The notes under the pieces: model-generated
Databases searched by the model: none
What the model was told of the DNA's origin: nothing
The model's input: only the letters and a program-made list of their open reading frames with translations
Position numbers and translations under genes: made by a program
From: Escherichia coli
GTDB taxonomy: Bacteria > Pseudomonadota > Gammaproteobacteria > Enterobacterales > Enterobacteriaceae
NCBI RefSeq assembly: GCF_003334305.1
Contig: NZ_QOWS01000042.1
Length of the DNA stretch: 12,912 nucleotides
Strand: one strand, 5' to 3'
In this document: positions 1 through 12,727 of the stretch, one piece after another
Position numbering within the stretch: position 1 is the stretch's first letter
Layout: each line of letters opens with the position of its first letter

Positions 1-1125
1 CCAGCCTGTTGGCGGAGTGGCTGAAGGCCACGGAACAGGCACCCCAACCGGTAATGCAGAGCCTTCTCCTAAACCAAGGTATGTGAGAAGACCAGCTACA
101 TCCTTTCCACTCAAATTGGTAAGCGTATTGTCCAGCGGTTGTTTACCTGCCAGCGCATTAAGCATTGTCGTGGCAAAGTTCGGATCATTCCCCAGTGCCG
201 CCGCCAGTTCGTTCAGTGTATCCAGTGCAGCAGGTGCAGAACCCACCATTCCTGCAATCGCCGATTTCACAAAAGCCGTAGTGGCAATCTGTGTATTGTT
301 GACCGACTGCGCCGCCGTGGGGGCTGTTGGCGTTCCGGTGAGTGCCGGACTCGACAACGGTGCTTTTAGTGCCAGCGCATTGTTAATGGTGGTACTGAAA
401 TTCGGATCATTGTTAATGGCTGCGGCTATTTCTTTCAGCGTGTCCAGCGTGGCTGGCGCACCATTAATAAGGGCCGTCAGTGCCGCCTGTACAAACGCAG
501 TGGTCGCAACCTGCGTGGTATTATTCCCCGCCGCTGGCGTTGGCGCTTTGGGGGTTCCGGTAAATGTCGGGCTGGCTTTTGGCGCGTACTGTGAATGCGG
601 GTCCGGTGCGGCAAGATGTTTTGCCATCTGATCATCCGCGTAAACCTTCAGCTCCAGTGCCTTGTCATCCACATACTTGCGGGTTGCCAGCACTACAGCA
701 GGGTCGATTTTCAGGGTGATATTGTCCGTGCTGCTGGTAATCAGCACCATGCGCACGGTCTGAGTGCGCCCGCTACCTTCAGCCAGTTGCGGCTTATAGC
801 TTTCCGGGCAGTTGCCCACGGCAATCAATGCCCCGGACTCATCAAACAAGCCCACTTCACGTATCCACCAACCGCCCTCGTTTTCAGGGATCACCTGTTC
901 GGCAATAATCTGGCTGCTGTTCTGCGGGTCGATATAAAGCATATTCAGCGCAGCCCGGCGTTTCTCATTTACCAGTGCCGTCTGCTTTGCGTCCGGCGTT
1001 GGCAATACTCCACCGCCATCGCCCACCGCCATATGGGTAATTTTTAGCGGCACACCGAGCGCGGCGGCGCTGGCAAGTTTCGCCGCGCCAATATCCGTCA
1101 GCAGGGTATAAAATTTTGTGCTCAT
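1..1125 (-). CDS. H: Tail fibre protein, P2 gpH-like; N-terminal ~375 codons only, C-terminus lies beyond the window start
   Basis: Hand translation of the minus strand in the frame ending at 1125 is open to position 1. It begins MSTKFYTLLTDIGAAKLASAAALGVPLKITHMAVGDGGG, resembling the P2 gpH N-terminus as recalled, and contains ...NDPNFATTMLNALAGKQP. The ATG at 1125..1123 overlaps the stop of gene I (ATGA). Missing from the ORF track only because it has no stop inside the window. Confidence 0.85.
   Translation of the reverse strand, partial: MSTKFYTLLTDIGAAKLASAAALGVPLKITHMAVGDGGGVLPTPDAKQTALVNEKRRAALNMLYIDPQNSSQIIAEQVIPENEGGWWIREVGLFDESGALIAVGNCPESYKPQLAEGSGRTQTVRMVLITSSTDNITLKIDPAVVLATRKYVDDKALELKVYADDQMAKHLAAPDPHSQYAPKASPTFTGTPKAPTPAAGNNTTQVATTAFVQAALTALINGAPATLDTLKEIAAAINNDPNFSTTINNALALKAPLSSPALTGTPTAPTAAQSVNNTQIATTAFVKSAIAGMVGSAPAALDTLNELAAALGNDPNFATTMLNALAGKQPLDNTLTNLSGKDVAGLLTYLGLGEGSALPVGVPVPWPSATPPTGW
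142..585 (-). repeat. Tandem duplication of a ~74-codon (222 nt) tail-fibre repeat unit inside H (units 364..585 and 142..363), diverged copies
   Basis: Both units translate to SPxxTGTPxAPTxxxxNNTQ(I/V)ATTAFVxxAxxxxxxxAPAxLDTL(K/N)E(I/L)AAAxxNDPNF(S/A)TTxxNALAxK. Nucleotide similarity is visible, e.g. 'aaattcggatcatt' near 166-185 and 398-412. Confidence 0.7.
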
Positions 1126-1727
1126 GGATTCACTCTCATTGTGTCAATAACATGGACCGCCCCGCCTTCATGCGCGGTGCCACCGGAAATAATCGTTTCG
1201 TTGATATACGGATAGATCGTGATTTCTTCGCCAAGATAGCTGGCGGCTCCCACCCAATGCGGGCCGCTGGTCTGCAGATTGATGGACATGCCGATCATGT
1301 GGCGGCTACATGGTTTGGCATCGCTTATCAGTCGCTCAAGTTCCAGATAGGTATCTTCAGTGATGCCCTGGTCCTGCACGCCGATATCCAGGCGAAACGT
1401 GCCCGGTGTTTCTCCGGTCTGCCACCACTCAATAATGCGGATCAGGAATCCGAACGGCTCCACCACCCGCCGCACGGCACTGGTGGTCCCTTTATGCTGA
1501 TGAATATAAAAAGCATCCTTCACCACCTGGCGCTTGACGCTTTCAGTCCAGCCCTCGTCCCAGCGATCCACAGAGAACGCCCAGGCGAGATAAGGCAGGA
1601 AACTGACCGGACAGGTTGCCGGATTCCACAAGTCACGAAGCGGCACCTGCAGATCAGAAATCCCGCTGCAGGTTTGCGCCAGTCGGCGCTCCAGTGGTGT
1701 TGAACCCGGTGGCAGCAGACTATTCAT
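1122..1727 (-). CDS. I: Baseplate assembly protein, P2 gpI-like
   Basis: 201-aa ORF with ATG at 1727..1725; motifs such as WNPxTCPxxxLPxLAWAFSVDRWDExW and PGTFRLDIGV resemble P2 gpI as recalled. Stop TGA (1124..1122) overlaps the H start. Confidence 0.85.
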   Translation of the reverse strand: MNSLLPPGSTPLERRLAQTCSGISDLQVPLRDLWNPATCPVSFLPYLAWAFSVDRWDEGWTESVKRQVVKDAFYIHQHKGTTSAVRRVVEPFGFLIRIIEWWQTGETPGTFRLDIGVQDQGITEDTYLELERLISDAKPCSRHMIGMSINLQTSGPHWVGAASYLGEEITIYPYINETIISGGTAHEGGAVHVIDTMRVNP

Positions 1728-2628
1728 CCGTTCCTCCGTTGGTTACGCTCCACTGCGTACATGATGCCGCCTGTGTTTTGTTCAGGACCACATCCGCCAG
1801 AGGAGAAGCCAGCTCCACACGCTGCACCCCCTCAACATGCAGGGCGGCAAAAATGGCGCTACGGCGAATATCCCGACCAAGACGCGTCTGACTGGCGATG
1901 TACTTCTGCAGGCTGGCTTTTGCCGCTGCCATTACCGGCTCTGCTTCCGGTCCAGGATAGAGAAAAATGGTGGCTTCCACGCGATACGGGATGATTTCTG
2001 CGCTGCGAACCGTAAGACGGTCAGCCACCGGGCGGACGTTCTCACTGTTCAGAGCTTTTTCCACCACGTCCAGCAGGTCTTTTTCTGCAGTTCCATCGCC
2101 TTCGCGGCTAAGGACAGTCAGCACCACCTCTGCAGGTGCCGGGCTGGTTGCACTGGCATCCGCCACCCGACCGTCGGCGCTTCGGGCATGAAATTCATAA
2201 GCTGCAGTTGGCCCCGCAACAGAAAGCCCTTCAAAGGCCGCAGGCACACGCAGGCGCAACGCTTCATCGCTTTCCATCACAGCTGCAACGGGCGGCACAG
2301 CATCATTATCAGCAGGCGTCACCGTCAGGCGTGTCACGTTGTAGTTGGCAGCGAGCTGGTCAAGATCGCCGCCCATCGCGTAAGCCACCATCACCGCCTG
2401 CGCGGCTTCGTTAATGCGCTGGCGCAGAAGCAACTCACGGTAAGCGTTCTCCTGCAACAATTTAGTGGCGGGTTCAGATTCCAGTTCCAGCGTGCGGATC
2501 ACTGCTTCCTGCTCATCTTTCGGATGAAGCGCCACAAATTCTGCCTTGCGTTCGGCAAGCAGCGTCTCAAAGTCCGGCACATCCACAATCTGCGGTGCAG
2601 GCAACTGCGAAAGGTCAATCACTGCCAT
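1720..2628 (-). CDS. J: Baseplate protein, P2 gpJ-like
   Basis: The ORF track extends to a GTG at 2667, but the ATG at 2628..2626 is preceded by AGGAG with a 6-nt spacer and gives 302 aa starting MAVIDLSQLPAPQIVDVPDFETLLAERKA, the length recalled for P2 gpJ. It overlaps the W stop. Confidence 0.85.
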   Translation of the reverse strand: MAVIDLSQLPAPQIVDVPDFETLLAERKAEFVALHPKDEQEAVIRTLELESEPATKLLQENAYRELLLRQRINEAAQAVMVAYAMGGDLDQLAANYNVTRLTVTPADNDAVPPVAAVMESDEALRLRVPAAFEGLSVAGPTAAYEFHARSADGRVADASATSPAPAEVVLTVLSREGDGTAEKDLLDVVEKALNSENVRPVADRLTVRSAEIIPYRVEATIFLYPGPEAEPVMAAAKASLQKYIASQTRLGRDIRRSAIFAALHVEGVQRVELASPLADVVLNKTQAASCTQWSVTNGGTDE

Positions 2629-2974
2629 TCTCTGCTCCTGTTGATACGGAAAGGGACACAGGCACACCGTTATTCCGCCGCCCGGTCAGCTCCACCACCA
2701 TTGAACCGTCAAAATTGCTGTTGATGGTGATGGAATCCAGCGTCAACCGTGGCTCCCAGCGACTCAGCGCCACATACACTGCCGACATGACCTGCAGGCG
2801 TAATGCCGGATTTTGTGGCTGATCTATCAGTGCCGACAGCAGGGAACCATATTCCCGGCGGGCAATACGGCTACCCTGCGGTGTCAGCAGAATGTCCCGC
2901 ACCGACTGGCGCAGATGATCAATATCAGTAATGACTTTGCCGCTGGTATTGTTCATCCCGCTATAAAGCGTCAT
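2615..2974 (-). CDS. W: Baseplate protein, P2 gpW-like (gp25-type)
   Basis: 119 aa starting MTLYSGMNNTSGKVITDIDHLRQSVRDILLTPQGSRIARREYGSLL, similar in length and sequence to P2 gpW as recalled; its ATG (2974..2972) overlaps the V stop (ATGA). Confidence 0.85.
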   Translation of the reverse strand: MTLYSGMNNTSGKVITDIDHLRQSVRDILLTPQGSRIARREYGSLLSALIDQPQNPALRLQVMSAVYVALSRWEPRLTLDSITINSNFDGSMVVELTGRRNNGVPVSLSVSTGAENGSD

Positions 2975-3549
2975 ATCGGGCCTCCGGTTGTATCGCCGCC
3001 TTTCAGGACGCCAGTATGCTGATGCGCATCAACCACGATCCCGTTAGAACTCATCGCTCCGCCGCCCTGGGTAACGCCACCATTGATCACCACTTCGCTG
3101 TTAATGCGCGTGCGGTCAGCCTCCAGTACAAACTCACTGGTTTTCATGGTGATGTTGTCAGCAGCCTCAATGACCATGGATTTGATGCCCCTGACATACC
3201 AGCGCCCGGTGGCGGGTTCGTATTCAAACCAGCCACCGTCAGGATGTTCTGTCACGCAGGCGTCCGCCGACGTCGACGGTGGTGCGAACTGATTCGAATA
3301 GACAGCGGGCAGCGCAAAGGCGGTTTCCAGATTGCCGCCCAGACTCAGCAGCACCACCTGCTCACCTTCCGATGGTCGCCACCATGTACGGGCATTCCCG
3401 GCACGCAGCGTCAGCCAGCTGATCCAGTTGGTTTCAAGCTCGCCCGTTTTCACCCGGCAAAGCCAGTTTTCCCTGTCCACTTCGGTGACTACCCCTGTGC
3501 GGATCAGGTTGGTGATAAGGCGCATGATTTCGGTTAATTGTGCGTTCAT
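2971..3549 (-). CDS. V: Baseplate spike/hub protein, P2 gpV-like
   Basis: 192 aa starting MNAQLTEIMRLITNLIRTGVVTEVD, with RTWWRPSEGEQV and a C-terminal ...HQHTGVLKGGDTTGGPI resembling P2 gpV as recalled; ATG at 3549..3547. Confidence 0.85.
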   Translation of the reverse strand: MNAQLTEIMRLITNLIRTGVVTEVDRENWLCRVKTGELETNWISWLTLRAGNARTWWRPSEGEQVVLLSLGGNLETAFALPAVYSNQFAPPSTSADACVTEHPDGGWFEYEPATGRWYVRGIKSMVIEAADNITMKTSEFVLEADRTRINSEVVINGGVTQGGGAMSSNGIVVDAHQHTGVLKGGDTTGGPI

Positions 3550-3595
3550 AGGGAAAGGTTGCCATCAGGGGAAGAAAGGCGGCAGTGCTGCAACT

Positions 3596-3613
3596 TGTAT
3601 CAGTGCTGATACA
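3596..3613 (-). promoter_or_regulatory. Candidate late-promoter activator site (Ogr/Delta-type TGT-N12-ACA dyad) upstream of V
   Basis: Sequence TGTATCAGTGCTGATACA, part of the perfect palindrome TTGTATCAG-TG-CTGATACAA, lies between the S stop (3618) and the V start (3549). It matches the TGT-N12-ACA consensus of P2/P4 late promoters and sits where the P2 V promoter is expected. Confidence 0.5.
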
Positions 3614-3617
3614 AAGA

Positions 3618-4064
3618 TCACCCCGCCAGCCATTGCAGAATCATGTCGCGGGTCATTGCCTCAACATCATCATTTACACCCAGAAGGCGACGCTCTGCGT
3701 AACGCACCTCCGGTCCCTTACGACTGACGCGATCTCGCAGGCCGTAATGGTGAACGCGGGCAATGCGCTGCACCTTGCCTTCAAACTGCACGCTGGCAGA
3801 GTCGGTGCTGGCGGCAGTTTTCAGGTATTTTGTGGTGCGCAGCTTTGCAAACATCTGACGTTTGATGCGCCCCTTCTTGCTGCGTGCTGTTACCCTGCGC
3901 GGTTCATAACTGCTGCCATCTGGATTGCGCTGCATCCTGATATTCTGCTGCTGTGTCCGGCGCAGTTCCTGCGCCAGCTGGCGCATCATGCGGCTTCTCG
4001 TGGCTGGTTCCAGATTCGCCAGCAAGGCACTCAGCCAGTCGTCCACCTTCTGCAGTTCAGCCAC
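3618..4064 (-). CDS. S: Tail completion protein, P2 gpS-like
   Basis: 148-aa ORF in the P2-equivalent position between R and V. The only start in frame is GTG at 4064..4062, preceded by GGTGA, and it overlaps the 3' end of R by 8 nt. Called mainly on synteny and size. Confidence 0.75.
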   Translation of the reverse strand: MAELQKVDDWLSALLANLEPATRSRMMRQLAQELRRTQQQNIRMQRNPDGSSYEPRRVTARSKKGRIKRQMFAKLRTTKYLKTAASTDSASVQFEGKVQRIARVHHYGLRDRVSRKGPEVRYAERRLLGVNDDVEAMTRDMILQWLAG

Positions 4065-4488
4065 GTTTCACCGTCCACATTTCTTCAGGTTCATCAGGTT
4101 CCGCTATAGCTTCAACACTCGACACACTACCGTCAGTGCTGACCAGCACACGCTCCGTCAGTTGCAGGTTCAGGCTGATATCACAGACATCGTTGCGCAG
4201 AATATCCACCTCAAAGGTGAATAGTTTTTCCCGTAACGCCGGGTTATTGATGGCATCGGGCTGGTTATCCCTCAGCCACAGCAAAACCGGGGCCATCAGC
4301 AGATTCTGGTCGCCGCTGAAATCCTCAATCACCGCGTTCAGGGTGTAACGGTACTCCCACGACATGGAGCTGGCCCCCGTGGCAACCAGCGAACCGTTAT
4401 CCACAAACAGATGCAGTTTGTCCGGGTTATTGCGGACATAAGGCACCGCTTTATTGAGGGCGTGGCGCAGGGATTGTGGTTTGTTCAC
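4057..4488 (-). CDS. R: Tail completion protein, P2 gpR-like
   Basis: The ORF track start is a TTG at 4509. The GTG at 4488..4486 is preceded by AGGAG with a 7-nt spacer and gives (M)NKPQSLRHALNKAVPYVRNNPDKLHLFVDNGS..., resembling P2 gpR as recalled. It overlaps the lysC 3' end. Confidence 0.75.
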   Translation of the reverse strand: MNKPQSLRHALNKAVPYVRNNPDKLHLFVDNGSLVATGASSMSWEYRYTLNAVIEDFSGDQNLLMAPVLLWLRDNQPDAINNPALREKLFTFEVDILRNDVCDISLNLQLTERVLVSTDGSVSSVEAIAEPDEPEEMWTVKRG

Positions 4489-4741
4489 TGTTTTGCTCCT
4501 GACACGCAATAATCATGTCCACTTTGTCTGCACAGACCGCCCAGGCGGCCTCCGTTTCATCCAACAACGCGTTCAGATCACCGTTAGTGCGCGGCTCTGC
4601 CTGATCCAGCCGACACGGTGTCACTCGCGGACAACCACTGACGATAAGCTGCACCTCCGGTGAGCGTCGGACGTTCCCGCAGCCGGATAATGTCAGCAGG
4701 CAAAGGAGTATCAGTCCAGCGGCGTAAATCCTCGTTCTCAC
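4451..4741 (-). CDS. lysC: Outer-membrane spanin lipoprotein (LysC/Rz1-like), starting inside lysB in a different frame
   Basis: 96 aa, the length recalled for P2 LysC. The N-terminus MRTRIYAAGLILLCLLTLSGC has a positively charged n-region, a hydrophobic core and a lipobox (L-S-G-C), and the rest is Pro-rich. GTG start at 4741 is preceded by GAGGA. Confidence 0.7.
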   Translation of the reverse strand: MRTRIYAAGLILLCLLTLSGCGNVRRSPEVQLIVSGCPRVTPCRLDQAEPRTNGDLNALLDETEAAWAVCADKVDMIIACQEQNSEQTTIPAPRPQ

Positions 4742-5012
4742 GTTTCAGTTCCTCGATCCGGTGTTGTCGTTGTCTCAGCAGCGCGCTGGTCTGTTCTGCT
4801 TCGGCATAGAGCCGCGCCTGCTCCCGGTTATTGGTTTCAGTCAGAATGGACAGGCTGATAAGCTGGCTGTTGCTCTTTGCCAGTGCCTGGCTTTTGCTCT
4901 GCAGCTCGTCTGCCTGCGTGCTAATGGTCTGGCTGGCATCAGCCAGCCGCCACGTCTGCCAGCCCAGCGCCGCCAGTAATAACGCCAGCACAACCAGCAG
5001 CAACCGGTTCAT
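4584..5012 (-). CDS. lysB: Inner-membrane spanin (LysB/Rz-like)
   Basis: 142 aa with an N-terminal membrane anchor (MNRLLLVVLALLLAALGW) followed by a charged, coiled-coil-like periplasmic region. Its ATG (5012..5010) overlaps the lysA stop (ATGA). Confidence 0.75.
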   Translation of the reverse strand: MNRLLLVVLALLLAALGWQTWRLADASQTISTQADELQSKSQALAKSNSQLISLSILTETNNREQARLYAEAEQTSALLRQRQHRIEELKRENEDLRRWTDTPLPADIIRLRERPTLTGGAAYRQWLSASDTVSAGSGRAAH

Positions 5013-5386
5013 GCTGCTACCTGTTGCGCCATCTGATTACGGGTGATCCAGAAGGCAATAACGGTCAGTAGATAAAAGACCAGGGTAATAGCCCACCCCG
5101 TCCAGGCGAGACTTACAACAATCAGCAATCGCATCACCCAACTGATAAATACGTTTTCTTTTCGGGTAATTGTCTTCAGTAAAGATGCCCTTAACTCCTG
5201 CCAGAGCGGGCCATTCTTAATTAACGCAGCCAGTGCTACCGGAATTACCGCCCATGTCAGCAAACAGGCTACCCAAACGCCGGACGCTGCCAGTACCGGA
5301 AAAATCCCCTGCGGATACACCATTGCTGCGATTAACAGCGCCATCCATAACATCAGAAACAGTCCGCTGATTAATTTCTTTTTCAT
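5009..5386 (-). CDS. lysA: LysA-like membrane protein (lysis regulator; proposed antiholin in P2)
   Basis: The ATG at 5386..5384 (MKKKLISGLFLML...) is preceded by GGGAG and lies 1 nt after the K stop. The product is about 125 aa with four predicted hydrophobic segments. The GTG at 5458 given by the ORF track would overlap K and is less likely. Confidence 0.65.
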   Translation of the reverse strand: MKKKLISGLFLMLWMALLIAAMVYPQGIFPVLAASGVWVACLLTWAVIPVALAALIKNGPLWQELRASLLKTITRKENVFISWVMRLLIVVSLAWTGWAITLVFYLLTVIAFWITRNQMAQQVAA

Positions 5387-5387
5387 T

Positions 5388-5900
5388 TCAGTTTGCTCCC
5401 TGTAAACACCAGACCATCTCCCGCGCACGGCGGTTATCCAGCCCCTGATTAAACACACCTTTTACATAAACCCAGCGCGGCAACTGTCGGCACGCATCCG
5501 CCCAGCGCCGCTGATTGAGCAATTTCACCAGCGTGGAGCTGCAGGCATTGCCCGTCCCCACGTTGAAGGCAAACGACACCGTAGCGTCATACACCTTCTG
5601 TGGTGGCAGTTGCTTCACACACCTTTCCAGTACCCGCTCCACACGCAGCACGTTGGAGATCAGCCCTTCTGCTGCCTGTCGTTCCGTGATTGTTTTGCCG
5701 GGAATGACGCCCGATGTATTACCAATGCCGTCGGTCCAGACACCCGCGCTGCACTGATACGGCTGCAGACGACAGCCTTCGTAATCAGCAATCAGTTTCA
5801 GCCCCTCCACGGAGGTGTGAAGCTGCTGAAAACCCGGCAGCGTGGCAGCAATAGCCAGCACGGCCCCGACAAGGCAGCGTTTAACGATTGATGGATTCAT
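5388..5900 (-). CDS. K: Endolysin, GH24/T4-lysozyme-like, with an N-terminal signal-anchor-release-like segment
   Basis: 170 aa. The motif E41-x8-C50-x5-T56 (YEGCRLQPYQCSAGVWTDGIGNT) matches the E-8-D/C-5-T catalytic triad of T4-type lysozymes. Residues ~8-24 (RCLVGAVLAIAATLPGF) form a weakly hydrophobic Ala/Gly-rich stretch. A strong RBS (GGGAGG) precedes the ATG at 5900. Confidence 0.85.
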   Translation of the reverse strand: MNPSIVKRCLVGAVLAIAATLPGFQQLHTSVEGLKLIADYEGCRLQPYQCSAGVWTDGIGNTSGVIPGKTITERQAAEGLISNVLRVERVLERCVKQLPPQKVYDATVSFAFNVGTGNACSSTLVKLLNQRRWADACRQLPRWVYVKGVFNQGLDNRRAREMVWCLQGAN

Positions 5901-6096
5901 AGTCCTCCCGCGAGATCTGCCCGTCGCGCAGAAGCTGGTAGGATTTGTGTTTGTAGTACCAGTTGATAGCCAGCATCAGTACACCAATCATCAGACCGCC
6001 CAGCGTTGAGGCATCCTTGATGGACAAATCGCCCAGCCAGGCCAGCACGACGGCGATGCAATACGTGATAAAGGCGCTGATTCGCTCAAGCGTCAT
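5881..6096 (-). CDS. Y: Small holin (two predicted transmembrane segments, charged C-terminus)
   Basis: 71 aa, MTLERISAFITYCIAVVLAWLGDLSIKDASTLGGLMIGVLMLAINWYYKHKSYQLLRDGQISREDYESINR. It occupies the P2 Y position immediately upstream of the endolysin and overlaps the K start by 20 nt. Confidence 0.7.
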   Translation of the reverse strand: MTLERISAFITYCIAVVLAWLGDLSIKDASTLGGLMIGVLMLAINWYYKHKSYQLLRDGQISREDYESINR

Positions 6097-6099
6097 AAT

Positions 6100-6303
6100 T
6101 CAGTCCCATAGCTGGACGGTCTGCACGGTGGTGGTGGTCGGAATGTCCGGCAGCTCCACCTGCAGCCCGTGAGGTAAAAAGGGGCCGTATTCGGCAAGCC
6201 CCGGATTTGCCTTCAGTACCTGCTCCGTGACCCCCTGCGTGCGCCCGTAATGACGCCAGCAAAGCGCGTCCACCGTGTCATACTGATGCGCACGCACTTT
6301 CAT
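6100..6303 (-). CDS. X: Tail protein X (P2 gpX-like, LysM-like)
   Basis: 67 aa, the length recalled for P2 gpX, with ...YGRTQGVTEQVLKANPGLAEYGPFLPHGLQVELPDI... Its ATG (6303..6301) overlaps the L stop (ATGA). Confidence 0.8.
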   Translation of the reverse strand: MKVRAHQYDTVDALCWRHYGRTQGVTEQVLKANPGLAEYGPFLPHGLQVELPDIPTTTTVQTVQLWD

Positions 6304-6767
6304 CAGATAAGCTCCACTGTGCAGTGCGGCGCATCCTGCACCCGGCTGATGGCCCAGCGGGCGTCACGCCACAAATCACCGCTTGCTTCCGCCAGTTCCT
6401 CGCCCCGCTTCACACCGGACGCCGTGGCGTCATAGTCCTGGTATCGTTCGTTGAGCATGGCGCGTGCCCAGCAGTAAACCGCGTTGAAATAGTGCTGAAT
6501 GCGCTCACTTTTGCCGTCCAGCTGTTCCGCCGGAACTTCTGCCAGCGAGGCATACCCCAGCATCTGCTGGCGTCTGCGAAACTCATACAGCTCTGCGTTG
6601 ACCTCCGAAATTGCCGACAGCGCAACCTGCTTTAAACGCGGCTGCGTCACCGTGCCGTCAGTGCGCATCACGCTGCGAAACTCCGACAGGTCCACATCAG
6701 GCCAGAACGGCGTATTCCTGATGATTTCCGCCTGTTCTGGTGCCTGTTCTGGCGCAACAAACTTCAT
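6303..6767 (-). CDS. L: Head completion/stabilisation protein, P2 gpL-like
   Basis: The ATG at 6767..6765 (MKFVAPEQAPEQAEIIRNTPFWPDVDL...) is preceded by AGGAG with an 8-nt spacer and gives 154 aa. The longer ORF-track version starts at a GTG at 6830 inside a GC-rich hairpin and is judged an artefact. Confidence 0.8.
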   Translation of the reverse strand: MKFVAPEQAPEQAEIIRNTPFWPDVDLSEFRSVMRTDGTVTQPRLKQVALSAISEVNAELYEFRRRQQMLGYASLAEVPAEQLDGKSERIQHYFNAVYCWARAMLNERYQDYDATASGVKRGEELAEASGDLWRDARWAISRVQDAPHCTVELI

Positions 6768-6832
6768 GCTGCTTTCTCCTGAAATAGAGGGCGGTGGACG
6801 GGGTTTTGATGTAGCAGTGCCTTTCGCCACCC

Positions 6833-6857
6833 CGTGCCGCCCGTGCGCGGGGGCACG
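6833..6857 (-). other. GC-rich stem-loop in the M-L intergenic region (about 10 bp of stem, no following U-tract)
   Basis: cgtgcc (6833-6838) pairs with ggcacg (6852-6857), and cccg (6840-6843) pairs with cggg (6848-6851), with loop tgcg. It lies in the only sizeable intergenic gap (~95 bp) of the O-S gene string. Confidence 0.4.
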
Positions 6858-6862
6858 TTCTG

Positions 6863-7513
6863 TCAGCGGCTGTCATTGCGCAGTCTGCGCTCCAGCTGCT
6901 GTTTGTCTTTTTTCACGCCACAGCGGGGATCGAGCTGTAACGCATGGTTGAGATGATTAAGGGCGGACGCCGGATTGCTTTCACTCAGGACAGCGCCAAT
7001 CGCTTTATGCAGACGCGCCCGTGACTGGTCCGGCATATCCAGACCGTCTGTCAGCTCCAGCGTCTGCAGCAGCGGATCGGCATCAAAGCCGGTGGCGGCA
7101 AGCATTGCGCTCTGCGCCGCGTCTGCCATTTCCTCTGCCAGCACGGTCTGCACGTTGCGGTTACCCAGCGGCATCACCCAGCCATGACGCAGGGCATGAC
7201 GCCCGATCTCCAGCGCCCCTGCATAATCTCCGGCATCAATGCGCCACAGCATCACGTACATCAGCACGTCATCCTGTTGAGCGCCTCCGGCAGCCAGAAC
7301 GCCCTCCGCCCAGGCGGCATATTTCGGCAGCAGCTCCACCTTGATTTCCGCTTTTTTGACCGTGGACTGAACGCCCTTGAGACGGCGGCGGTCTTCCGCC
7401 AGTTGCAGCAGCATCAGGTCATAGCCCGACGCGTGGCGAACACTGCCGCCCTCGCGGGCGGCCTGTTCAGCCTGAACGCGCAGGCGATGCTGCCGTGCGG
7501 GACTCAGGCTCAT
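6863..7513 (-). CDS. M: Terminase small (endonuclease) subunit, P2 gpM-like
   Basis: 216 aa starting MSLSPARQHRLRVQAEQAARE, with GAQQDDVLMYVMLWRIDAGDYAGALEIGRHAL resembling P2 gpM as recalled. ATG at 7513 is preceded by GGAG and lies 3 nt after the N stop. Confidence 0.85.
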   Translation of the reverse strand: MSLSPARQHRLRVQAEQAAREGGSVRHASGYDLMLLQLAEDRRRLKGVQSTVKKAEIKVELLPKYAAWAEGVLAAGGAQQDDVLMYVMLWRIDAGDYAGALEIGRHALRHGWVMPLGNRNVQTVLAEEMADAAQSAMLAATGFDADPLLQTLELTDGLDMPDQSRARLHKAIGAVLSESNPASALNHLNHALQLDPRCGVKKDKQQLERRLRNDSR

Positions 7514-7516
7514 GAA

Positions 7517-8575
7517 TTACGCTCCGGTTTCTGCTGCGGCGGCGCTGAAGTCACCAATCTGGATGTTTTCCACCAGTGCAGCGCAGCGATAGTCCTCAAC
7601 CACATAGGCTTCGTTAACGGATTCAAAATTTTCAATCCGGTCACGTTTCGGGTTGTCGATAACTGAACGGCGGCGGGTATCTTCCTGCCAGTAGATGGAC
7701 AGGTTATCCAGACGGGTGATCAGCAGCGCATTCGGCGGGAAGAACGGCGCACGCACCGCCTGCAGGCCACCCATGCGTTTCTGACTGATGATCATATCGG
7801 CAGCCAGTTTTTCACTGTTTTCCTGCTCTTTGTTGACCAGCGGGAAATACTTGTCAGACAGCAGTTCACGACCGCAAATCACCACCAGATCGTCATCGTC
7901 CTGGTAGACCACATCGATAAGCTCATTGACGGCATCCATCACTACGGCGTCCAGGTTGGCATATTCGCCACCTTTCCCGACTTTCACCGCGCCCGGTGTG
8001 GTTTCACCGCCCGTGGTGGTGCTGCCCATGACGTGATCCGGTGCATCCTCACGGATTTTCTGCAGCCAGCCTTTGTTCACATCCTGCAGCAGCGGGTTTT
8101 CGCTACGGTTGGAGGTTTTCGCACGCTTCACGCCGTTAAAGCCGATCATGATGCGGTCCAGTGCCTGACGTTTCACGATGGCGTTACGGATACGCACCTG
8201 GAAATCCTGAAACTTCGCCCACAGGTCCAGCTTCGCGTAGGTCAGCACCGTGTCAAAGTTGGTCTGTTCGCATTTGTATTCCACATCGACCATCAGCGTC
8301 GGATCGACAGGTTCTCGCTCTTTCGCGGTGGTATCAGTGGTTCCGGCAATGGTGCTGCCAACACCCAGCCCCAGCAACTGACCAGACTGCTCAGTCACTG
8401 GCGTGACGTTAATCAGCGTCAGGAAAGCGGCGGACTGCTGGATCTGGTCTTCCAGCGTCTGCTGCACGGACGGCTCTACGGTGAACTTGCTGGACAGTTC
8501 TTCAACTGCCACACCGTTCAGACGCGCCAGCTGCTGCAGGTAAGCGTTAAAAGCAAAGCGGGTATTCTTCTTCAT
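7517..8575 (-). CDS. N: Major capsid protein, P2 gpN-like
   Basis: 352 aa in the position between O and M, the same size class as P2 gpN (~357 aa); ATG at 8575..8573. Confidence 0.9.
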   Translation of the reverse strand: MKKNTRFAFNAYLQQLARLNGVAVEELSSKFTVEPSVQQTLEDQIQQSAAFLTLINVTPVTEQSGQLLGLGVGSTIAGTTDTTAKEREPVDPTLMVDVEYKCEQTNFDTVLTYAKLDLWAKFQDFQVRIRNAIVKRQALDRIMIGFNGVKRAKTSNRSENPLLQDVNKGWLQKIREDAPDHVMGSTTTGGETTPGAVKVGKGGEYANLDAVVMDAVNELIDVVYQDDDDLVVICGRELLSDKYFPLVNKEQENSEKLAADMIISQKRMGGLQAVRAPFFPPNALLITRLDNLSIYWQEDTRRRSVIDNPKRDRIENFESVNEAYVVEDYRCAALVENIQIGDFSAAAAETGA

Positions 8576-8591
8576 CGGGTTTTGTGCTCCA

Positions 8592-9425
8592 TCAGCAATT
8601 GGTCAGAGTGTCAGCGGGGGCGTTACCGCCTGTTGCACGCTGGCGGTAGTCCTGGCGGCTGTCTTCATGACTCAGCTTATTCACCAGTTCGTTAAAGGCG
8701 GTCTGCTGTGCCTGCAGGGCAGTCTCCAGCTCAGACAGACGTTCTTCCTGCTCAGACAGGGATTTTTCGGTGCGTGCGCTCAGGTTTTGCTGCTCAGTGG
8801 CGACCAGCTCCACGGCCTTATGCACATCAGAGAACCGGGCATCGTCGGACTGCTCTTTTTTGGTAAACAGCGCCGTGACACGGGCAAACAGGGACGGTTT
8901 GTCCTCCTGGATTTCTTCCAGTTCGATCACTGTTTCCTCTGCGGCGGTAAAGAGATTGGCGGGATTCTGCTTGCGGTTTGCCAGCGGGTTATGGGCTGCA
9001 CTGGCGCTGAATGTCAGCATTTCCGTACCCAAACTGGCAGGGTCATCAGTGGCAGCCAGGCCGACCAGGTAGGCTTTGCCCGTATCAGCGAACTTCGGGC
9101 TGACTTCCATAGAGGTGAATAATTTCTGGCCTTTTTTCACCAATTCCACCAGGGACTCCGTTGGCTCAACGTCGGCATACAGCGCCATCTTGCCTGCCAG
9201 CGGGCCTTCCGTGATTTCTTCAGCAAACAGCGCCGTCACCTTGCCGTAACGGTTAAAGGTGCTGTCCGGGAGATAAGACTTGATGTGCTCAAGGTTAATC
9301 AGCGCGGTATACACCGCCGGGTTGTAGCTGGCTGCCATCTGTTCCAGCCATTCACGCTGGATTTCGCGTCCGTCGGTGGTGGCACCTTCCACCCCGATGC
9401 GAAAACGCTTTGCTTTCACTGTCAT
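8592..9425 (-). CDS. O: Capsid scaffolding protein, P2 gpO-like
   Basis: 277 aa starting MTVKAKRFRIGVEGATTDGREIQREWLEQMAASYNP, the same size class as P2 gpO (~284 aa); ATG at 9425..9423 is preceded by GGAG. Confidence 0.9.
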   Translation of the reverse strand: MTVKAKRFRIGVEGATTDGREIQREWLEQMAASYNPAVYTALINLEHIKSYLPDSTFNRYGKVTALFAEEITEGPLAGKMALYADVEPTESLVELVKKGQKLFTSMEVSPKFADTGKAYLVGLAATDDPASLGTEMLTFSASAAHNPLANRKQNPANLFTAAEETVIELEEIQEDKPSLFARVTALFTKKEQSDDARFSDVHKAVELVATEQQNLSARTEKSLSEQEERLSELETALQAQQTAFNELVNKLSHEDSRQDYRQRATGGNAPADTLTNC

Positions 9426-9502
9426 GAGCCGTGCTCCGTTAGAAATAACTTACTGGAGCCTTATGGTTGCGGTGATGGGGGCAGTGAAACAATGCGCGGT
9501 AT

Positions 9503-9520
9503 TTGTACCGACAACCACAC
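9503..9520. promoter_or_regulatory. Candidate late-promoter activator site (TGT-N12-ACA) in the O/P divergent intergenic region
   Basis: TGTACCGACAACCACACA is the only TGT-N12-ACA match in the 142-bp region between the O start (9425) and the P start (9568), where the P2 divergent late promoters for P and O are expected. Confidence 0.45.
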
Positions 9521-9567
9521 AAACCGCAGGCGGGGAAAGCCTTCATTCAAGGCTGTAGGTTTGTGCC

Positions 9568-11334
9568 ATGAACACCACACTGACACCCGCAGATCTCGAT
9601 CCCCGTCGGCAGGCCATGCTGCTGTACTTTCAGGGATACCGCGTAGCCCGCATTGCTGAAATGCTGGGCGAGAAAGTTGCAACCGTTCACAGCTGGAAGA
9701 AACGCGACAAGTGGGGTGACTATGGGCCGCTGGATCAGATGCAGCTCACCACCGCCGCACGTTACTGCCAGCTCATTATGAAGGAGCACAAAGAAGGGAA
9801 AGATTTCAAAGAAATTGACCTGCTGGCGCGCCAGTCGGAGCGCCACGCGCGGATCGGCAAGTTTAACAATGGCGGCAACGAAGCCGACTTAAACCCTAAC
9901 GTCGCCAACCGCAACAAAGGCCCGCGCCGTCAGCCGGAAAAGAATGTTTTCACCGATGAACAGATAGAGAAACTGGAAGAAATCTTCCATTCCTCCATGT
10001 TCAACTACCAGCGCCACTGGTGGGAAGCCGGAAAAACCAACCGCATCCGCAACCTGCTGAAGTCACGCCAGATCGGCGCGACCTTTTACTTTGCCCGTGA
10101 AGCCCTGATTGACGCCCTGCTTACCGGACGTAACCAGATTTTCCTTTCTGCCAGTAAGGCACAGGCTCACGTCTTTAAGCAGTACATCATCGACTTCGCC
10201 AAAGAAGTCGAGGTGGAGCTGAAAGGCGATCCGATGGTGCTTCCTAACGGGGCCACGCTTTACTTCCTCGGCACCAATGCCCGCACGGCGCAGAGTTACC
10301 ACGGCAACCTGTATCTGGATGAATATTTCTGGATACCGAAATTCCAGGAGTTGCGCAAAGTGGCTTCCGGTATGGCTATTCACAAGAAATGGCGACAAAC
10401 CTATTTTTCCACGCCATCCAGCCTGACCCACAGTGCTTATCCGTTCTGGTCCGGTGCGCTGTTCAACCGTGGACGCAACAAAGCTGACAAGGTGGACATC
10501 GACCTGTCCCACAGCAATCTGGCCCCCGGCCTGCTGTGCGCAGACGGGCAATACCGCCAGATAGTCACCGTGGAAGATGCGGTGCGCGGCGGCTGTAACC
10601 TGTTCGACCTCGACCAGCTGCGCATGGAGTACAGCCCGGACGAATACCAGAACCTGCTGATGTGCGAGTTCGTGGACGATCTCGCGTCCGTGTTCCCGCT
10701 CAGCGAACTGCAGGCGTGCATGGTGGACAGCTGGGAAGTCTGGACCGACTTTCATGCACTGGCCCTGCGCCCGTTTGGCTGGCGCGAAGTGTGGATCGGT
10801 TATGACCCGGCAAAAGGTACGCAGAACGGCGACAGTGCCGGATGCGTGGTGGTGGCTCCGCCAGCCGTGCCGGGTGGTAAGTTCCGCATTCTTGAGCGTC
10901 ACCAGTGGCGCGGGATGGACTTCCGCGCCCAGGCTGACGCCATCAAAAAACTGACCGAACAGTATAACGTGACCTATATCGGTATCGACTCGACCGGCGT
11001 CGGTCACGGGGTTTACGAGAACGTGAAAGCGTTTTTTCCTGCTGTCCGGGAGTTTGTCTATAACCCCAACGTTAAAAACGCCCTGGTACTCAAGGCCTAC
11101 GACATTATCAGCCACCGCCGTCTGGAGTTTGACGCCGGGCACACCGACATTGCGCAGTCATTTATGGCAATCCGTCGCGCTACCACTGCCAGTGGCAACC
11201 GCCCGACCTATGAAGCCAGCCGCAGCGAAGAAGCCAGCCATGCCGATCTGGCCTGGGCAACAATGCACGCACTGTTTAACGAACCGCTGCAGGGCGAGTC
11301 CGCCAATACCAGCAATATTGTGGAGATTTTTTGA
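9568..11334 (+). CDS. P: Terminase large (ATPase) subunit, P2 gpP-like
   Basis: 588 aa (P2 gpP is ~590) starting MNTTLTPADLDPRRQAMLLYFQGYRVARIAEMLGEK. It diverges from O and is followed by Q with a TGATG stop/start overlap. Confidence 0.9.
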   Translation: MNTTLTPADLDPRRQAMLLYFQGYRVARIAEMLGEKVATVHSWKKRDKWGDYGPLDQMQLTTAARYCQLIMKEHKEGKDFKEIDLLARQSERHARIGKFNNGGNEADLNPNVANRNKGPRRQPEKNVFTDEQIEKLEEIFHSSMFNYQRHWWEAGKTNRIRNLLKSRQIGATFYFAREALIDALLTGRNQIFLSASKAQAHVFKQYIIDFAKEVEVELKGDPMVLPNGATLYFLGTNARTAQSYHGNLYLDEYFWIPKFQELRKVASGMAIHKKWRQTYFSTPSSLTHSAYPFWSGALFNRGRNKADKVDIDLSHSNLAPGLLCADGQYRQIVTVEDAVRGGCNLFDLDQLRMEYSPDEYQNLLMCEFVDDLASVFPLSELQACMVDSWEVWTDFHALALRPFGWREVWIGYDPAKGTQNGDSAGCVVVAPPAVPGGKFRILERHQWRGMDFRAQADAIKKLTEQYNVTYIGIDSTGVGHGVYENVKAFFPAVREFVYNPNVKNALVLKAYDIISHRRLEFDAGHTDIAQSFMAIRRATTASGNRPTYEASRSEEASHADLAWATMHALFNEPLQGESANTSNIVEIF

Positions 11335-12368
11335 TGGGAAAGAGTAAGAAGAACCGCGCTGCGTCGACGAAACAGATCCAGCATAAAAGCCAGACTTCAG
11401 CCGAAGCATTCAGCTTCGGTGATCCCGTTCCTGTTCTGGACCGCCGCGAACTGCTGGACTATGTGGAATGCGTACAGATGGATCGTTGGTACGAGCCGCC
11501 TGTGAGTTTCGACGGACTGGCGCGAACCTTCCGCGCCGCCGTGCATCACAGCTCACCGATTGCAGTGAAGTGCAACATTCTGACCAGCACCTACATCCCT
11601 CACCCGCTGCTCAGCCAGCAGGCTTTTTCGCGTTTTGTACAGGACTATCTGGTTTTTGGTAACGCCTACCTGGAGAAACGCACAAACCGCTTCGGTGAAG
11701 TTATCGCCCTTGAGCCTGCACTGGCAAAATACACCCGACGCGGGTTAGACCTTGATACCTACTGGTTTGTGCAATACGGCATGACTACGCAGCCGTATCA
11801 GTTCACGAAAGGCAACATTTTTCATCTGATGGAACCGGACATCAACCAGGAGATCTACGGCCTGCCTGGTTATCTTTCTGCCATTCCGTCAGCTCTGCTC
11901 AACGAGTCCGCCACGCTGTTCCGCCGCAAGTATTACATTAACGGCAGTCATGCAGGCTTCATCATGTACATGACCGATGCAGCGCAGAACCAGGAGGATG
12001 TGAACAACCTCCGCAACGCGATGAAAAGCGCCAAAGGTCCTGGTAACTTCCGTAACCTGTTTATGTACTCGCCTAACGGTAAAAAGGACGGGCTTCAGAT
12101 TATCCCGTTGTCAGAAGTGGCGGCGAAGGATGAGTTCCTGAATATCAAGAACGTGAGCCGGGACGACATGATGGCGGCGCATCGTGTGCCGCCACAAATG
12201 ATGGGGATAATGCCTAATAATGTCGGGGGGTTTGGGGATGTGGAGAAGGCCAGTCGCGTATTTGTACGTAATGAATTAACGCCCTTGCAAAAAAGGCTAC
12301 AAGAGCTGAACGACTGGCTGGGCGAAGAAGTGATTAAATTTACGCCCTATATTCTTTCAGAAGAATAA
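11334..12368 (+). CDS. Q: Portal protein, P2 gpQ-like
   Basis: ATG at 11334 (the ORF-track TTG at 11331 is one codon upstream) gives 344 aa, the length recalled for P2 gpQ, starting MGKSKKNRAASTKQ. Its start overlaps the P stop. Confidence 0.9.
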   Translation: MGKSKKNRAASTKQIQHKSQTSAEAFSFGDPVPVLDRRELLDYVECVQMDRWYEPPVSFDGLARTFRAAVHHSSPIAVKCNILTSTYIPHPLLSQQAFSRFVQDYLVFGNAYLEKRTNRFGEVIALEPALAKYTRRGLDLDTYWFVQYGMTTQPYQFTKGNIFHLMEPDINQEIYGLPGYLSAIPSALLNESATLFRRKYYINGSHAGFIMYMTDAAQNQEDVNNLRNAMKSAKGPGNFRNLFMYSPNGKKDGLQIIPLSEVAAKDEFLNIKNVSRDDMMAAHRVPPQMMGIMPNNVGGFGDVEKASRVFVRNELTPLQKRLQELNDWLGEEVIKFTPYILSEE

Positions 12369-12376
12369 TTCCGAAC

Positions 12377-12727
12377 TTATTTGTTTCTTCTTTGTTCACG
12401 CCTTGTCTTGGCTTCGATAAGGCGTTGAGGTTCAGTGTAAAGCCGTTCTAAAAAAAGATAGGTAAAATCTTCAAGATCCTCAGCAGCAGCTTTATCCAAA
12501 ATACCTTCATGCGCTCCATCATTTCCGTCATCTTTAACGCATTCAGCTAGTTCCCTTAAAGCTTCAGGCAGTAGATGATTATCAAATAACCACTCCATTC
12601 TTAACCCTAGGCTTCTCCTTATTTTTTGCGCAGGCCCTTGCTCCCCATCAGGAAGAAGTCCTTTTGTGGCATAATCAAGGCAAAGCCTAAACATGGTTGC
12701 TGCTGCATTATAACAACCTATAGCCAA
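12377..12727 (-). CDS. Hypothetical small acidic protein in low-GC cargo next to the portal gene; possibly HEPN/DUF4145-like (speculative)
   Basis: 116-codon ORF in ~40-45% GC DNA, convergent with Q (stops 8 bp apart). The TTG at 12727 is preceded by GAGGAAGGGG with an 8-nt spacer; the first ATG is at 12694. No homologue recognised with confidence; the motif GNDGAHEG and a helical, acidic composition are the only hints. Confidence 0.5.
   Translation of the reverse strand: MAIGCYNAAATMFRLCLDYATKGLLPDGEQGPAQKIRRSLGLRMEWLFDNHLLPEALRELAECVKDDGNDGAHEGILDKAAAEDLEDFTYLFLERLYTEPQRLIEAKTRREQRRNK

What the first reader, a model, noticed from the sequence alone, without database searches (positions are those of the whole stretch)
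1122..11336. Extensive stop/start overlaps and non-ATG starts across the late operons
ATGA overlaps occur at I/H (1122-1125), V/W (2971-2974), L/X (6303), lysA/lysB (5009-5012) and TGATG at P/Q (11332-11336). R, S and lysC appear to start at GTG. This tight coupling is typical of phage morphogenetic operons and supports the annotation; it matters for anyone engineering the region.
Basis: seen in the sequence. Interest (0 to 1): 0.15.

Follow-up and report, generated by a model that had tools for sequence, protein, structure and literature searches.

The report
Overlapping gene starts in P2-like prophage
The stop/start overlaps and GTG start codons are real, conserved and ordinary features of the late genes of a P2-like prophage of E. 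coli; the one long gap in this tightly packed region holds a conserved folded RNA element that no curated database lists.

Summary
The window is identical to a Fels-2/SopEPhi-like P2-family prophage in E. coli A7. All five claimed overlaps exist at the stated coordinates. I/H, V/W and lysA/lysB are ATGA (-4). In all, 11 of 17 co-directional junctions overlap and 14 of 17 lie within +3 nt.

R (4488), S (4064) and lysC (4741) start at GTG. The same codons are GTG in 81-82 of 83 close relatives and in four other genera. They are ATG at the aligned position in P2, 186 and PSP3. Pfam and NCBIfam profiles begin at or within a few residues of these codons. RefSeq (CTG 4699) and a RAST-style record (GTG 4624) start lysC too late and cut off its lipoprotein signal peptide.

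This is known P2 biology; coupling itself is inferred, so interest is low. Found in passing: the only long intra-operon gap (M-L, 6788-6860, minus strand) carries a two-hairpin RNA motif. It has strong covariation across alpha-, beta- and gamma-proteobacterial P2-like phages and is absent from Rfam. V and P look leaderless.

The parts
1122..1125 (-). I stop / H start, ATGA (-4 overlap)
   Evidence: kept in 72 of 72 relatives with an aligned H start; P2 and 186 have a +10 gap instead
1720..1727 (-).
   Evidence: also -8 in P2, 186, PSP3
2615..2628 (-).
   Evidence: J ATG 2628 has AGGAG 5 nt upstream
2971..2974 (-). V stop / W start, ATGA (-4 overlap)
   Evidence: -4 in all 12 annotated P2-family phages examined
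3547..3549 (-). V start ATG without a Shine-Dalgarno sequence; candidate leaderless start
   Evidence: best anti-SD duplex only -1.8 kcal/mol; centre of dyad 3596-3613 lies 55 nt upstream; spacing 54-57 nt in 74 of 77 relatives even where the intervening sequence is unrelated; the P2 GenBank record puts the V-operon transcription start on the A of V's ATG
3596..3613 (.). TGT-N12-ACA dyad (Ogr/B-type late activator site) of the V promoter, in the 68-nt S-V gap
4057..4064 (-). R stop / S start, GTGGCTGA (-8 overlap); S starts at GTG 4064
   Evidence: GTG in 81 of 82 relatives; TIGR01635 aligns residue 3 to profile position 2; in-frame TGA two codons upstream
4486..4488 (-). R start codon GTG
   Evidence: aligns with the ATG of P2 R; AGGAG 6-7 nt upstream; Pfam PF06891 position 2 aligns to the residue after this codon; GTG in 81 of 83 relatives, ATG in P2 and in one close relative; TTG 4509 is not kept in ST437/ST512 phages
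4451..4741 (-). lysC (o-spanin, Rz1 equivalent), 96 aa, GTG start at 4741, +1 frame within lysB, running 38 nt into R
   Evidence: NF038368 aligns residues 5-88 to profile 2-85 of 85; lipobox LSGC with Cys21; GTG in 82 of 83 relatives
5009..5012 (-). lysA-like stop / lysB start, ATGA (-4 overlap)
   Evidence: -4 also in Fels-2 and Klebsiella relatives; -13 in P2
5881..5900 (-).
6301..6305 (-).
   Evidence: -1 in P2, 186, PSP3, phiCTX, ENT90, KS5, AP3
6788..6860 (-). Conserved two-hairpin RNA motif filling the M-L gap. Hairpin 1 about 6856-6845 with a CCCC loop. Hairpin 2 6842-6789 with bulged C 6836 and internal loop CCA 6797-6795.
   Evidence: no Rfam match
9504..9521 (.). TGT-N12-ACA dyad between the divergent O and P genes; centre 55 nt from P's ATG and 87 nt from O's ATG
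11332..11336 (+). P stop / Q start, TGATG (-1 overlap)
   Evidence: -1 in P2, -4 in phiCTX

Best explanation
The window holds the late (head, lysis, tail and baseplate) genes of a P2-family prophage of the Fels-2/SopEPhi type, integrated in E. coli. Three late transcription units are present: P-Q on the plus strand, and O-to-S and V-to-H on the minus strand. They are driven from activator-dependent promoters marked by TGT-N12-ACA dyads. Within them the genes are packed so that a ribosome terminating one gene is already on or beside the next start codon. Eleven of 17 junctions overlap and three more are within 3 nt. The most likely consequence is termination-reinitiation coupling, which would keep the products of neighbouring morphogenetic genes in fixed ratios. 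It would also allow weak ribosome-binding sites (H, lysB) and weaker GTG start codons (S) to be used. R, S and lysC initiate at GTG at the same codons that are ATG in P2. Shown here: the overlaps, the gene identities, the conservation of geometry and the start positions. Inferred: that translation is actually coupled.
For: Identity and synteny: 100% match to E. coli A7 with RefSeq annotation; same gene order as P2; family profiles for portal, P2 capsid, LysB, LysC, S, V, I and GpR. Overlaps. Conservation of geometry across genera. Start codons: GTG kept in 81-82 of 83 close relatives and in Fels-2, SopEPhi, SEN8, Dagavirus, Gegevirus and Kapieceevirus. One relative has ATG at the R codon, a change that is silent only if this codon is the initiator. 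Profile N-termini coincide with the GTGs. Chosen starts have better anti-SD pairing than the alternatives: R -6.6 against -3.0; lysC -5.9 against -3.0, 0 and -2.2; S -6.8 against -1.5 and -3.0 kcal/mol. Overlap frequency is well above the roughly 15% background, P = 4e-6. ATGA/TGATG pairs tested in E. coli were strictly coupled (abstract of PMC6728339). Dyads fall in both inter-operon gaps.
Against: No expression data exist for this prophage, so coupling is not shown. Geometry is not fixed at every junction: I/H is +10, lysA/lysB -13 and W/J +4 in P2; R/S is -1 in Burkholderia phages and -4 in ENT90. So exact overlaps are not required for function. Most downstream genes keep their own Shine-Dalgarno sequence, so independent initiation is possible too.
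Confidence: 0.9

Rival explanations
1. The overlaps are a neutral by-product of genome compaction and of the sequence compatibility of start and stop codons (ATGA, TGATG). Each gene is initiated independently at its own ribosome-binding site, and no functional coupling exists.
For: Most downstream genes have a usable SD inside the upstream gene. Geometry differs between clades at I/H, lysA/lysB, W/J and R/S.
Against: V/W -4 and L/X -1 are invariant from E. coli to Pseudomonas and Burkholderia phages whose proteins are only about 40% identical. H and lysB have poor SDs (-3.1 and -3.8 kcal/mol) exactly at ATGA overlaps. E. coli pairs of this kind that were tested were coupled.
Confidence: 0.2
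2. The non-ATG starts are annotation artefacts. R would start at TTG 4509 (older PGAP call) or an upstream ATG as annotated in SopEPhi. lysC would start at CTG 4699 (RefSeq) or GTG 4624 (KP12 record). S would start at a downstream ATG.
For: Public records disagree.
Against: An in-frame TGA at 4515 blocks the SopEPhi-type upstream ATG in this window. TTG 4509 is not kept in ST437/ST512 whereas the GTG is. Starts at 4699 or 4624 remove the signal peptide or the lipobox Cys21 and cut 11 or more positions of the NF038368 profile. The next ATG in S and R would delete 25 and 41 conserved residues. Miscalled start codons and unannotated o-spanin genes are a documented problem (PMC6139136).
Confidence: 0.05
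3. The region is a decaying prophage remnant, so the junctions no longer matter.
For: An IS3 sits at the right edge and truncates a cargo gene.
Against: All 19 late genes are full length against their homologues, with no frameshifts. The same block is found at 96-100% identity in hundreds of E. coli genomes and in isolated Klebsiella phages.
Confidence: 0.03

Closest known systems
Bacteriophage P2 late operons (AF063097) and the Fels-2 / SopEPhi group (Peduoviridae, Felsduovirus)
   Same: Same gene order. Same P/Q -1, L/X -1, V/W -4, R/S -8, J/I -8 and lysC/R -38 junctions. Same overlapped lysB/lysC/R arrangement. Activator dyads in the same gaps. The V start coincides with the predicted transcription start.
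   Different: R, S and lysC use GTG where P2, 186 and PSP3 use ATG. I/H and lysA/lysB are ATGA here but +10 and -13 in P2. Holin and endolysin are of other families (17% and 16% identity to P2 Y and K). No cargo gene lies between S and V (P2 has orf30). P appears to have lost its 23-nt leader.
ATGA / TGATG overlapping gene pairs coupled by termination-reinitiation (Huber et al. 2019, PMC6728339; Front Microbiol 2023, PMC10666635)
   Same: Co-directional pairs with -4 or -1 overlaps, or very short gaps, often encoding parts of one assembly.
   Different: Coupling has not been measured for any pair here. The density of overlaps (65%) is far above the genomic average of about 15%.
Overlapped two-component spanins, prototype P2 LysB/LysC (Kongari et al. 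2018, PMC6139136)
   Same: The o-spanin gene starts in the +1 frame inside the i-spanin gene and ends beyond it. It has a lipoprotein signal with lipobox and matches the LysB and LysC equivalog profiles.
   Different: GTG rather than ATG initiator. Public annotations of this very locus truncate the gene.
Intercistronic mRNA hairpins and processing sites (T7 RNase III sites, RNase P-dependent intercistronic cleavage, 3' stabiliser hairpins): comparison for the M-L motif, from my own knowledge
   Same: A stable structured element confined to an untranslated gap between two genes of one operon, on the sense strand only.
   Different: No matching Rfam family. Invariant bulged C and CCA internal loop. 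No consistent U-tract. No processing data.

Membership tests
P2-family (Peduoviridae) late gene cluster | Gene order Q,P | O,N,M,L,X,(lysis),R,S | V,W,J,I,H with homologous proteins | tested here: met
   Pairwise identities of 38-66% for structural genes; RefSeq names; TIGR01551, TIGR01540, TIGR01635, TIGR01644, TIGR01634 and PF06891 above cut-off
P2-family (Peduoviridae) late gene cluster | Late promoters with a TGT-N12-ACA activator site about 55 nt upstream of the transcription start | tested here: inconclusive
   Dyads lie in both inter-operon gaps, which make up 1.6% of the window and hold 2 of the 4 matches. The window-wide count is not above chance. Transcription starts were not measured.
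Translationally coupled overlapping gene pairs | Co-directional genes whose stop and start codons overlap by 4 or 1 nt | tested here: met
   I/H, V/W and lysA/lysB are -4; L/X and P/Q are -1
Translationally coupled overlapping gene pairs | Translation of the downstream gene depends on translation of the upstream gene | not testable with these tools
   Needs reporter fusions or ribosome profiling
Overlapped two-component spanin (LysB/LysC) | i-spanin homologue matching the LysB equivalog | tested here: met
   TIGR03495, 172 bits against a cut-off of 92.75
Overlapped two-component spanin (LysB/LysC) | o-spanin ORF starting inside the i-spanin gene in another frame and ending beyond it | tested here: met
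   lysC 4741-4451 against lysB 5012-4584; frame offset +1
Overlapped two-component spanin (LysB/LysC) | Lipoprotein signal peptide with lipobox Cys | tested here: met
   VRTRIYAAGLILLCLLTLSGC, Cys21, present only if translation starts at GTG 4741; NF038368, 124 bits against a cut-off of 27. Lipidation itself was not tested.
Leaderless mRNA (V, possibly P) | Transcription starts at the A of the start codon | not testable with these tools
   Only indirect support: no SD, conserved 54-57 nt dyad-to-ATG spacing, and the P2 record's transcription start on V's ATG
Any Rfam family (for the M-L motif) | Score at or above a family's gathering threshold | tested here: not met
   0 matches at gathering score in the whole window. 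Only chance-level miRNA/snoRNA matches at E values from 2.2 up to the 10 limit in 6700-6930.
Intrinsic terminator (for the M-L motif) | GC-rich hairpin followed directly by a U-tract | tested here: not met
   Not reported by the terminator scan. The tail is UCUAUUUC here but AACCUGAU in 186, ACCUCAAG in phiCTX and CUACUCAU in AP3.

The most novel reading that the evidence does not exclude
The single long untranslated gap inside these tightly packed operons (M-L, 92-111 nt in P2-family phages of alpha-, beta- and gamma-proteobacteria) is kept because it encodes an undescribed cis-acting RNA. The RNA has a short C-loop hairpin followed by a long hairpin. The long hairpin's 5-6 bp G/C base helix, single bulged C and 3-nt CCA internal loop are invariant, while the rest of the stem covaries. 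Its likely role is to split or insulate the capsid/terminase part of the late mRNA (O,N,M) from the head-completion, lysis and tail part (L to S). This could work by endonucleolytic processing (a tRNA-like helix-N-CCA mimic for RNase P is one possibility), by protecting the new RNA ends, or by binding a conserved factor.
Probability: 0.45. Interest if true: 0.55.

Novelty: already known. Interest (0 to 1): 0.17.

Why it matters
For the finding itself the value is practical. Anyone editing this prophage, or P2-type phages and tailocin-like particles built from them, must keep the shared bases at 11 junctions. They should use GTG 4488, 4064 and 4741 as the true starts. The RefSeq and RAST-style lysC calls would delete the lipoprotein signal of the outer-membrane spanin.

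The side observation matters more. A structured RNA conserved from Zymomonas and Ralstonia to E. coli phages sits exactly where coupling is broken. It points to an unstudied layer of late-gene control in a model phage family, and it could be tested with simple deletions and compensatory mutations in P2.

Tried and rejected
1. Rfam, at gathering score over the whole window and at E<=10 on 6700-6930, returned nothing relevant.

2. The consensus promoter/terminator scan reported no terminator at the M-L motif or in the lysB-R interval, and sigma-70-type hits were at chance level. Folding 4485-4590, the site of P2's annotated attenuator, was not better than shuffles (z -0.8).

3. I considered stop-codon readthrough of M into L. 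The M frame is open across the gap here and in 186, and is in frame with L in P2. But gap lengths (92, 93, 95, 99, 103, 104) give no conserved frame, and phiCTX has an in-frame stop, so I rejected it (by reading).

4. I considered an HK022 put-like antiterminator and an ops/RfaH site. I could find no supporting feature (my own knowledge; untested).

5. Three literature searches for a leaderless P2 gene V gave nothing usable. That claim rests on the P2 GenBank features.

6. The original P2 head-gene sequence paper (Linderoth 1991, PMC332578) is not held. I cannot exclude that the M-L dyad was mentioned there.

7. The first version of the motif alignment (A3) was mis-trimmed by me and was discarded in favour of A4.

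8. A PADLOC search of the DUF4145 remnant gave no hit.
Full report
WHAT THE WINDOW IS. The 12,912 bases are 100% identical to E. coli strain A7 chromosome NZ_CP028767.1, 3595888-3608799. They are 96-97% identical to isolated Klebsiella and Escherichia P2-type phages. RefSeq and phage-record annotations, comparison with phage P2 itself and family profiles give the map below.

- Minus strand: H (start 1125), I 1727-1122, J 2628-1720, W 2974-2615, V 3549-2971, S 4064-3618, R 4488-4057, lysC 4741-4451, lysB 5012-4584, lysA-like 5386-5009, K 5900-5388, Y 6096-5881, X 6303-6100, L 6767-6303, M 7513-6863, N 8575-7517, O 9425-8592.
- Plus strand: P 9568-11334 and Q 11334-12368.

By nucleotide similarity of R-S, the closest named phages are 500465-1, Cartapus, Klebsiella 4LV2017, SopEPhi, Fels-2 and SEN8, not P2 itself.

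CHECK OF THE OBSERVATION. All five sites are as stated.
- I/H (1125-1122), V/W (2974-2971) and lysA/lysB (5012-5009) read ATGA on the minus strand. The downstream ATG shares four bases with the upstream TGA.
- P/Q (11332-11336) reads TGATG.
L ends with TGA at 6305-6303 and X begins with ATG at 6303-6301, a one-base overlap as in P2.

Of 17 co-directional neighbour pairs, 11 overlap. Three more are separated by only 1-3 nt: N/M, X/Y and K/lysA. Against the roughly 15% of co-directional pairs that overlap in most prokaryote groups (PMC6728339), 11 of 17 has binomial P = 4e-6. The tetramers themselves are common (65 ATGA on the minus strand). The signal is their position at the ends of homologue-supported genes. 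Only three junctions are loose: O/N (+16), S/V (+68, an operon boundary) and M/L (+95).

THE GTG STARTS.

S: GTG 4064 is the first start-type codon after an in-frame TGA two codons upstream. The next candidates are GTG 4046 and ATG 3989. P2 S aligns from residue 1 without gaps. TIGR01635 aligns residue 3 to profile position 2.

R: after an in-frame TGA at 4515 there are two candidates, TTG 4509 and GTG 4488.
- GTG 4488 aligns with the ATG of P2 and 186 R.
- It has AGGAG 6-7 nt upstream.
- Pfam PF06891 position 2 falls on the residue after it.
- TTG 4509 is replaced in the ST437 and ST512 phages, while the GTG is kept.
- SopEPhi's annotators chose an ATG 24 codons upstream and noted 'longer than similar proteins'. 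In this window that extension is closed by the TGA at 4515.

lysC: GTG 4741 follows an in-frame TGA two codons upstream. It is the only ATG/GTG/TTG before the lipobox (LSGC, Cys21). It aligns with the ATG of P2 LysC (MRTKIF... against VRTRIY...). NF038368 covers residues 5-88. RefSeq starts the gene at CTG 4699, giving 82 aa and leaving six residues before the Cys. The KP12 record starts it at GTG 4624, giving 57 aa and removing the Cys. Such miscalls for overlapped o-spanin genes are a known problem (PMC6139136).

Conservation: the three codons are GTG in 81-82 of 83 close relatives. R and S are also GTG in Fels-2, SopEPhi, SEN8 and members of Dagavirus, Gegevirus and Kapieceevirus. lysC is GTG in SEN8 and phiCTX, and GTG-AAA-ATG in Fels-2. 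P2, 186 and PSP3 have ATG at the same positions. One relative carries ATG at the R codon. Anti-SD pairing favours the chosen starts over every alternative. Three non-ATG starts in 19 genes is close to the E. coli average (my own knowledge).

HOW IT MOST LIKELY WORKS. TGT-N12-ACA dyads, the P2 Ogr / 186 B type of activator site, lie in the S-V gap (3596-3613) and in the O-P gap (9504-9521). The window therefore holds three late units as in P2.

Inside them, a terminating ribosome is on or next to the following start codon. For ATGA/TGATG pairs, termination-reinitiation coupling has been shown in E. coli (PMC6728339). Very short gaps also allow it (PMC10666635). H and lysB, both at ATGA overlaps, have poor SDs (-3.1 and -3.8 kcal/mol), which fits dependence on the upstream ribosome.

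Geometry is conserved where it can be compared. V/W is -4 and L/X (or L/next gene) is -1 in every annotated P2-family phage examined. R/S is -8 in enteric phages and phiCTX, -4 in ENT90 and -1 in Burkholderia phages. J/I is -8 in P2, 186 and PSP3. lysC/R is -38 in P2, 186 and Fels-2. I/H, lysA/lysB and W/J differ in P2 (+10, -13, +4), so an exact overlap is not obligatory.

Shown: sequence, homology and conservation. Inferred: coupling.

COMPARISON WITH WHAT IS KNOWN, AND NOVELTY. Everything in the finding is established P2-family biology and general prokaryotic gene organisation. The useful corrections are the L/X type, the five missed overlaps, the choice of GTG 4488 over TTG 4509, and the demonstration that current public lysC calls for this locus are truncated.

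SEEN IN PASSING 1: A CONSERVED RNA IN THE M-L GAP.

Conserved gap. The only long gap within an operon (6768-6862) has a conserved length in P2 (99), 186 (92), PSP3 (93), phiCTX (103), ENT90 (92), ST437/ST512 (95) and Burkholderia AP3/KS5 (104).

Fold. All of these fold alike. A short hairpin closes a CCCC loop. Then comes a long hairpin with base GGGCGG / CCGCCC, one bulged C on the 5' side, CCA on the 3' side, and a variable upper helix.

Covariation.
- With 11 reference phages, 8 of 16 predicted pairs show compensatory changes.
- An IMG/VR scan for GGCGGCACG-N22-52-CGTCCACCGCC hit its 120-locus limit. Of these, 102 are flanked by an M homologue upstream and an L homologue downstream, and 6 are chance hits in coding DNA.
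- In 60 distinct inner segments, the first four upper-helix positions pair in 100, 97, 97 and 92% of sequences with 3-6 pair types. With partners permuted the figures are 47-48% (84% at position 3).
- Loci collected through phiCTX gpL, independently of the RNA, give 44 distinct gaps with the same architecture. Their base helix is swapped (GCCGG/CCGGC).
- On a 50-sequence alignment, the two helices of hairpin 2 are 99% and 91% paired, and 9 of 14 pairs show double changes. Covariation is 0.429, against 0.127 in shuffles (0 of 500 as high) and 0.05-0.09 for slid partners. Hairpin 1 aligns poorly (64%).
- G-U pairs outnumber other mismatches, which fits an RNA on the sense strand.

Distribution. 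A covariance model finds exactly one hit per phage locus, always in this gap and on the sense strand. It also detects the motif in Ralstonia RSY1 (52 bits), Klebsiella Kp4846-1, Mannheimia 1127AP1 and a Zymomonas prophage-plasmid. In Mannheimia the base is AAGGGG/CCCCUU, the upper helix is A/U-rich, and the bulged C and CCA are kept. In Zymomonas the motif lies inside an extended M ORF that overlaps L by ATGA.

Prior description. No Rfam family matches. The curated P2, 186 and phiCTX records annotate nothing there. The Mannheimia record marks a promoter and a terminator in the gap.

Function. This is unknown. The tail after the hairpin is not a consistent U-tract, so a classical terminator is unlikely. 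Processing, stabilisation or factor binding are my hypotheses. I could not read the 1991 P2 sequence paper.

SEEN IN PASSING 2: LEADERLESS CANDIDATES. V and P, the first genes of their units, lack SDs (-1.8 and -3.6 kcal/mol). Each starts 55 nt from the centre of its dyad. For V the spacing is 54-57 nt in 74 of 77 relatives. It also holds in Fels-2, SopEPhi, ST13, SEN8, ST437 and ST512, even where the intervening DNA is unrelated. The P2 record places the V-operon transcription start on the A of V's ATG. For P the spacing is 55 nt in 72 of 73 close relatives, whereas P2 and 186 have a leader of about 23 nt.

OTHER OBSERVATIONS. The ORF at 12377-12727 is the 3' remnant of a 232-aa DUF4145 gene cut by an IS3. 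The S-V gap is empty here but carries cargo genes in relatives. Holin and endolysin differ from those of P2.

VERDICT. The finding is already known and of low interest. The M-L RNA motif is the item worth a follow-up.

Noticed in passing
window 6788-6860 (minus strand), the M-L intergenic gap 6768-6862: A conserved two-hairpin RNA motif: a CCCC-loop hairpin, then a long hairpin with an invariant G/C base helix, a bulged C and a CCA internal loop. It shows strong covariation, occurs once per P2-family phage on the sense strand only, and is found from E. coli to Ralstonia, Mannheimia and Zymomonas. It has no Rfam family and no annotation in the P2, 186 or phiCTX records. Function unknown.
   Followed up: yes
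window 3549 (V ATG) with dyad 3596-3613; 9568 (P ATG) with dyad 9504-9521: The first genes of two late units have no Shine-Dalgarno sequence and start 55 nt from the centre of the activator dyad, where the transcription start is expected. The V spacing is conserved across relatives with unrelated upstream DNA. V, and perhaps P, are probably translated from leaderless mRNA. P2's record puts the V transcription start on its ATG, but P2's P has a 23-nt leader.
   Followed up: partly
window 4451-4741 (minus strand): Public annotations disagree on the lysC start: RefSeq/PGAP uses CTG 4699 (82 aa), the KP12 record GTG 4624 (57 aa), and ST13 and ST512 records still shorter ORFs. Only GTG 4741 (96 aa) keeps the signal peptide and lipobox Cys21 and matches P2 LysC and the NF038368 profile.
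   Followed up: yes
window 12377-12727 (minus strand) and 12837-12912; L084 16866-18028: The 116-aa 'DUF4145 domain-containing protein' is the 3' remnant of a 232-aa gene that is intact in strain GPEC673. An IS3 element is inserted from about 12837 in strains A7 and A28. The gene sits in the variable cargo region next to the portal gene. PADLOC gave no hit.
   Followed up: partly
window 3550-3617 (S-V gap): This 68-nt gap is a cargo insertion point in relatives: orf30 in P2, an FRG-domain protein in SEN8, hypothetical genes in ST437 and ST512, and an Old-like exonuclease in Burkholderia KS5. It is empty here, as in Fels-2 and 186.
   Followed up: partly
window 5009-6096 (minus strand): The lysis cassette is mosaic relative to P2. 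Y is an HP1-family holin of 71 aa (17% identity to P2 Y). K is a lysozyme that the Fels-2 record likens to P1 Lyz (16% identity to P2 K). The lysA-like gene belongs to the DNZ54_00345 family. lysB and lysC are P2-type.
   Followed up: no
window 4741-4749 and 4064-4072 (minus strand): lysC and S share the same 9-mer around the start, TGAAACGTG: an in-frame TGA, then AAC, then the GTG initiator. The lysC version is also present in phiCTX. Probably coincidence or a ribosome-binding-site constraint.
   Followed up: no
L084 1846-3581 (just left of the window, E. coli A7): A recombinase-family (invertase-type) gene and alternative tail-fibre and assembly gene fragments lie next to H. This suggests an invertible tail-fibre segment, as in Mu or P1.
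   Followed up: no
L299 546-587 (Mannheimia phage vB_MhM_1127AP1): The depositors annotated a promoter and a rho-independent terminator inside the homologous M-L gap. Their terminator corresponds to the apical part of the motif's long hairpin.
   Followed up: partly
IMG/VR relatives L004-L083: Natural start-codon variants at the same positions: one relative has ATG instead of GTG at the R start, and one has TTG instead of ATG at the W start.
   Followed up: partly
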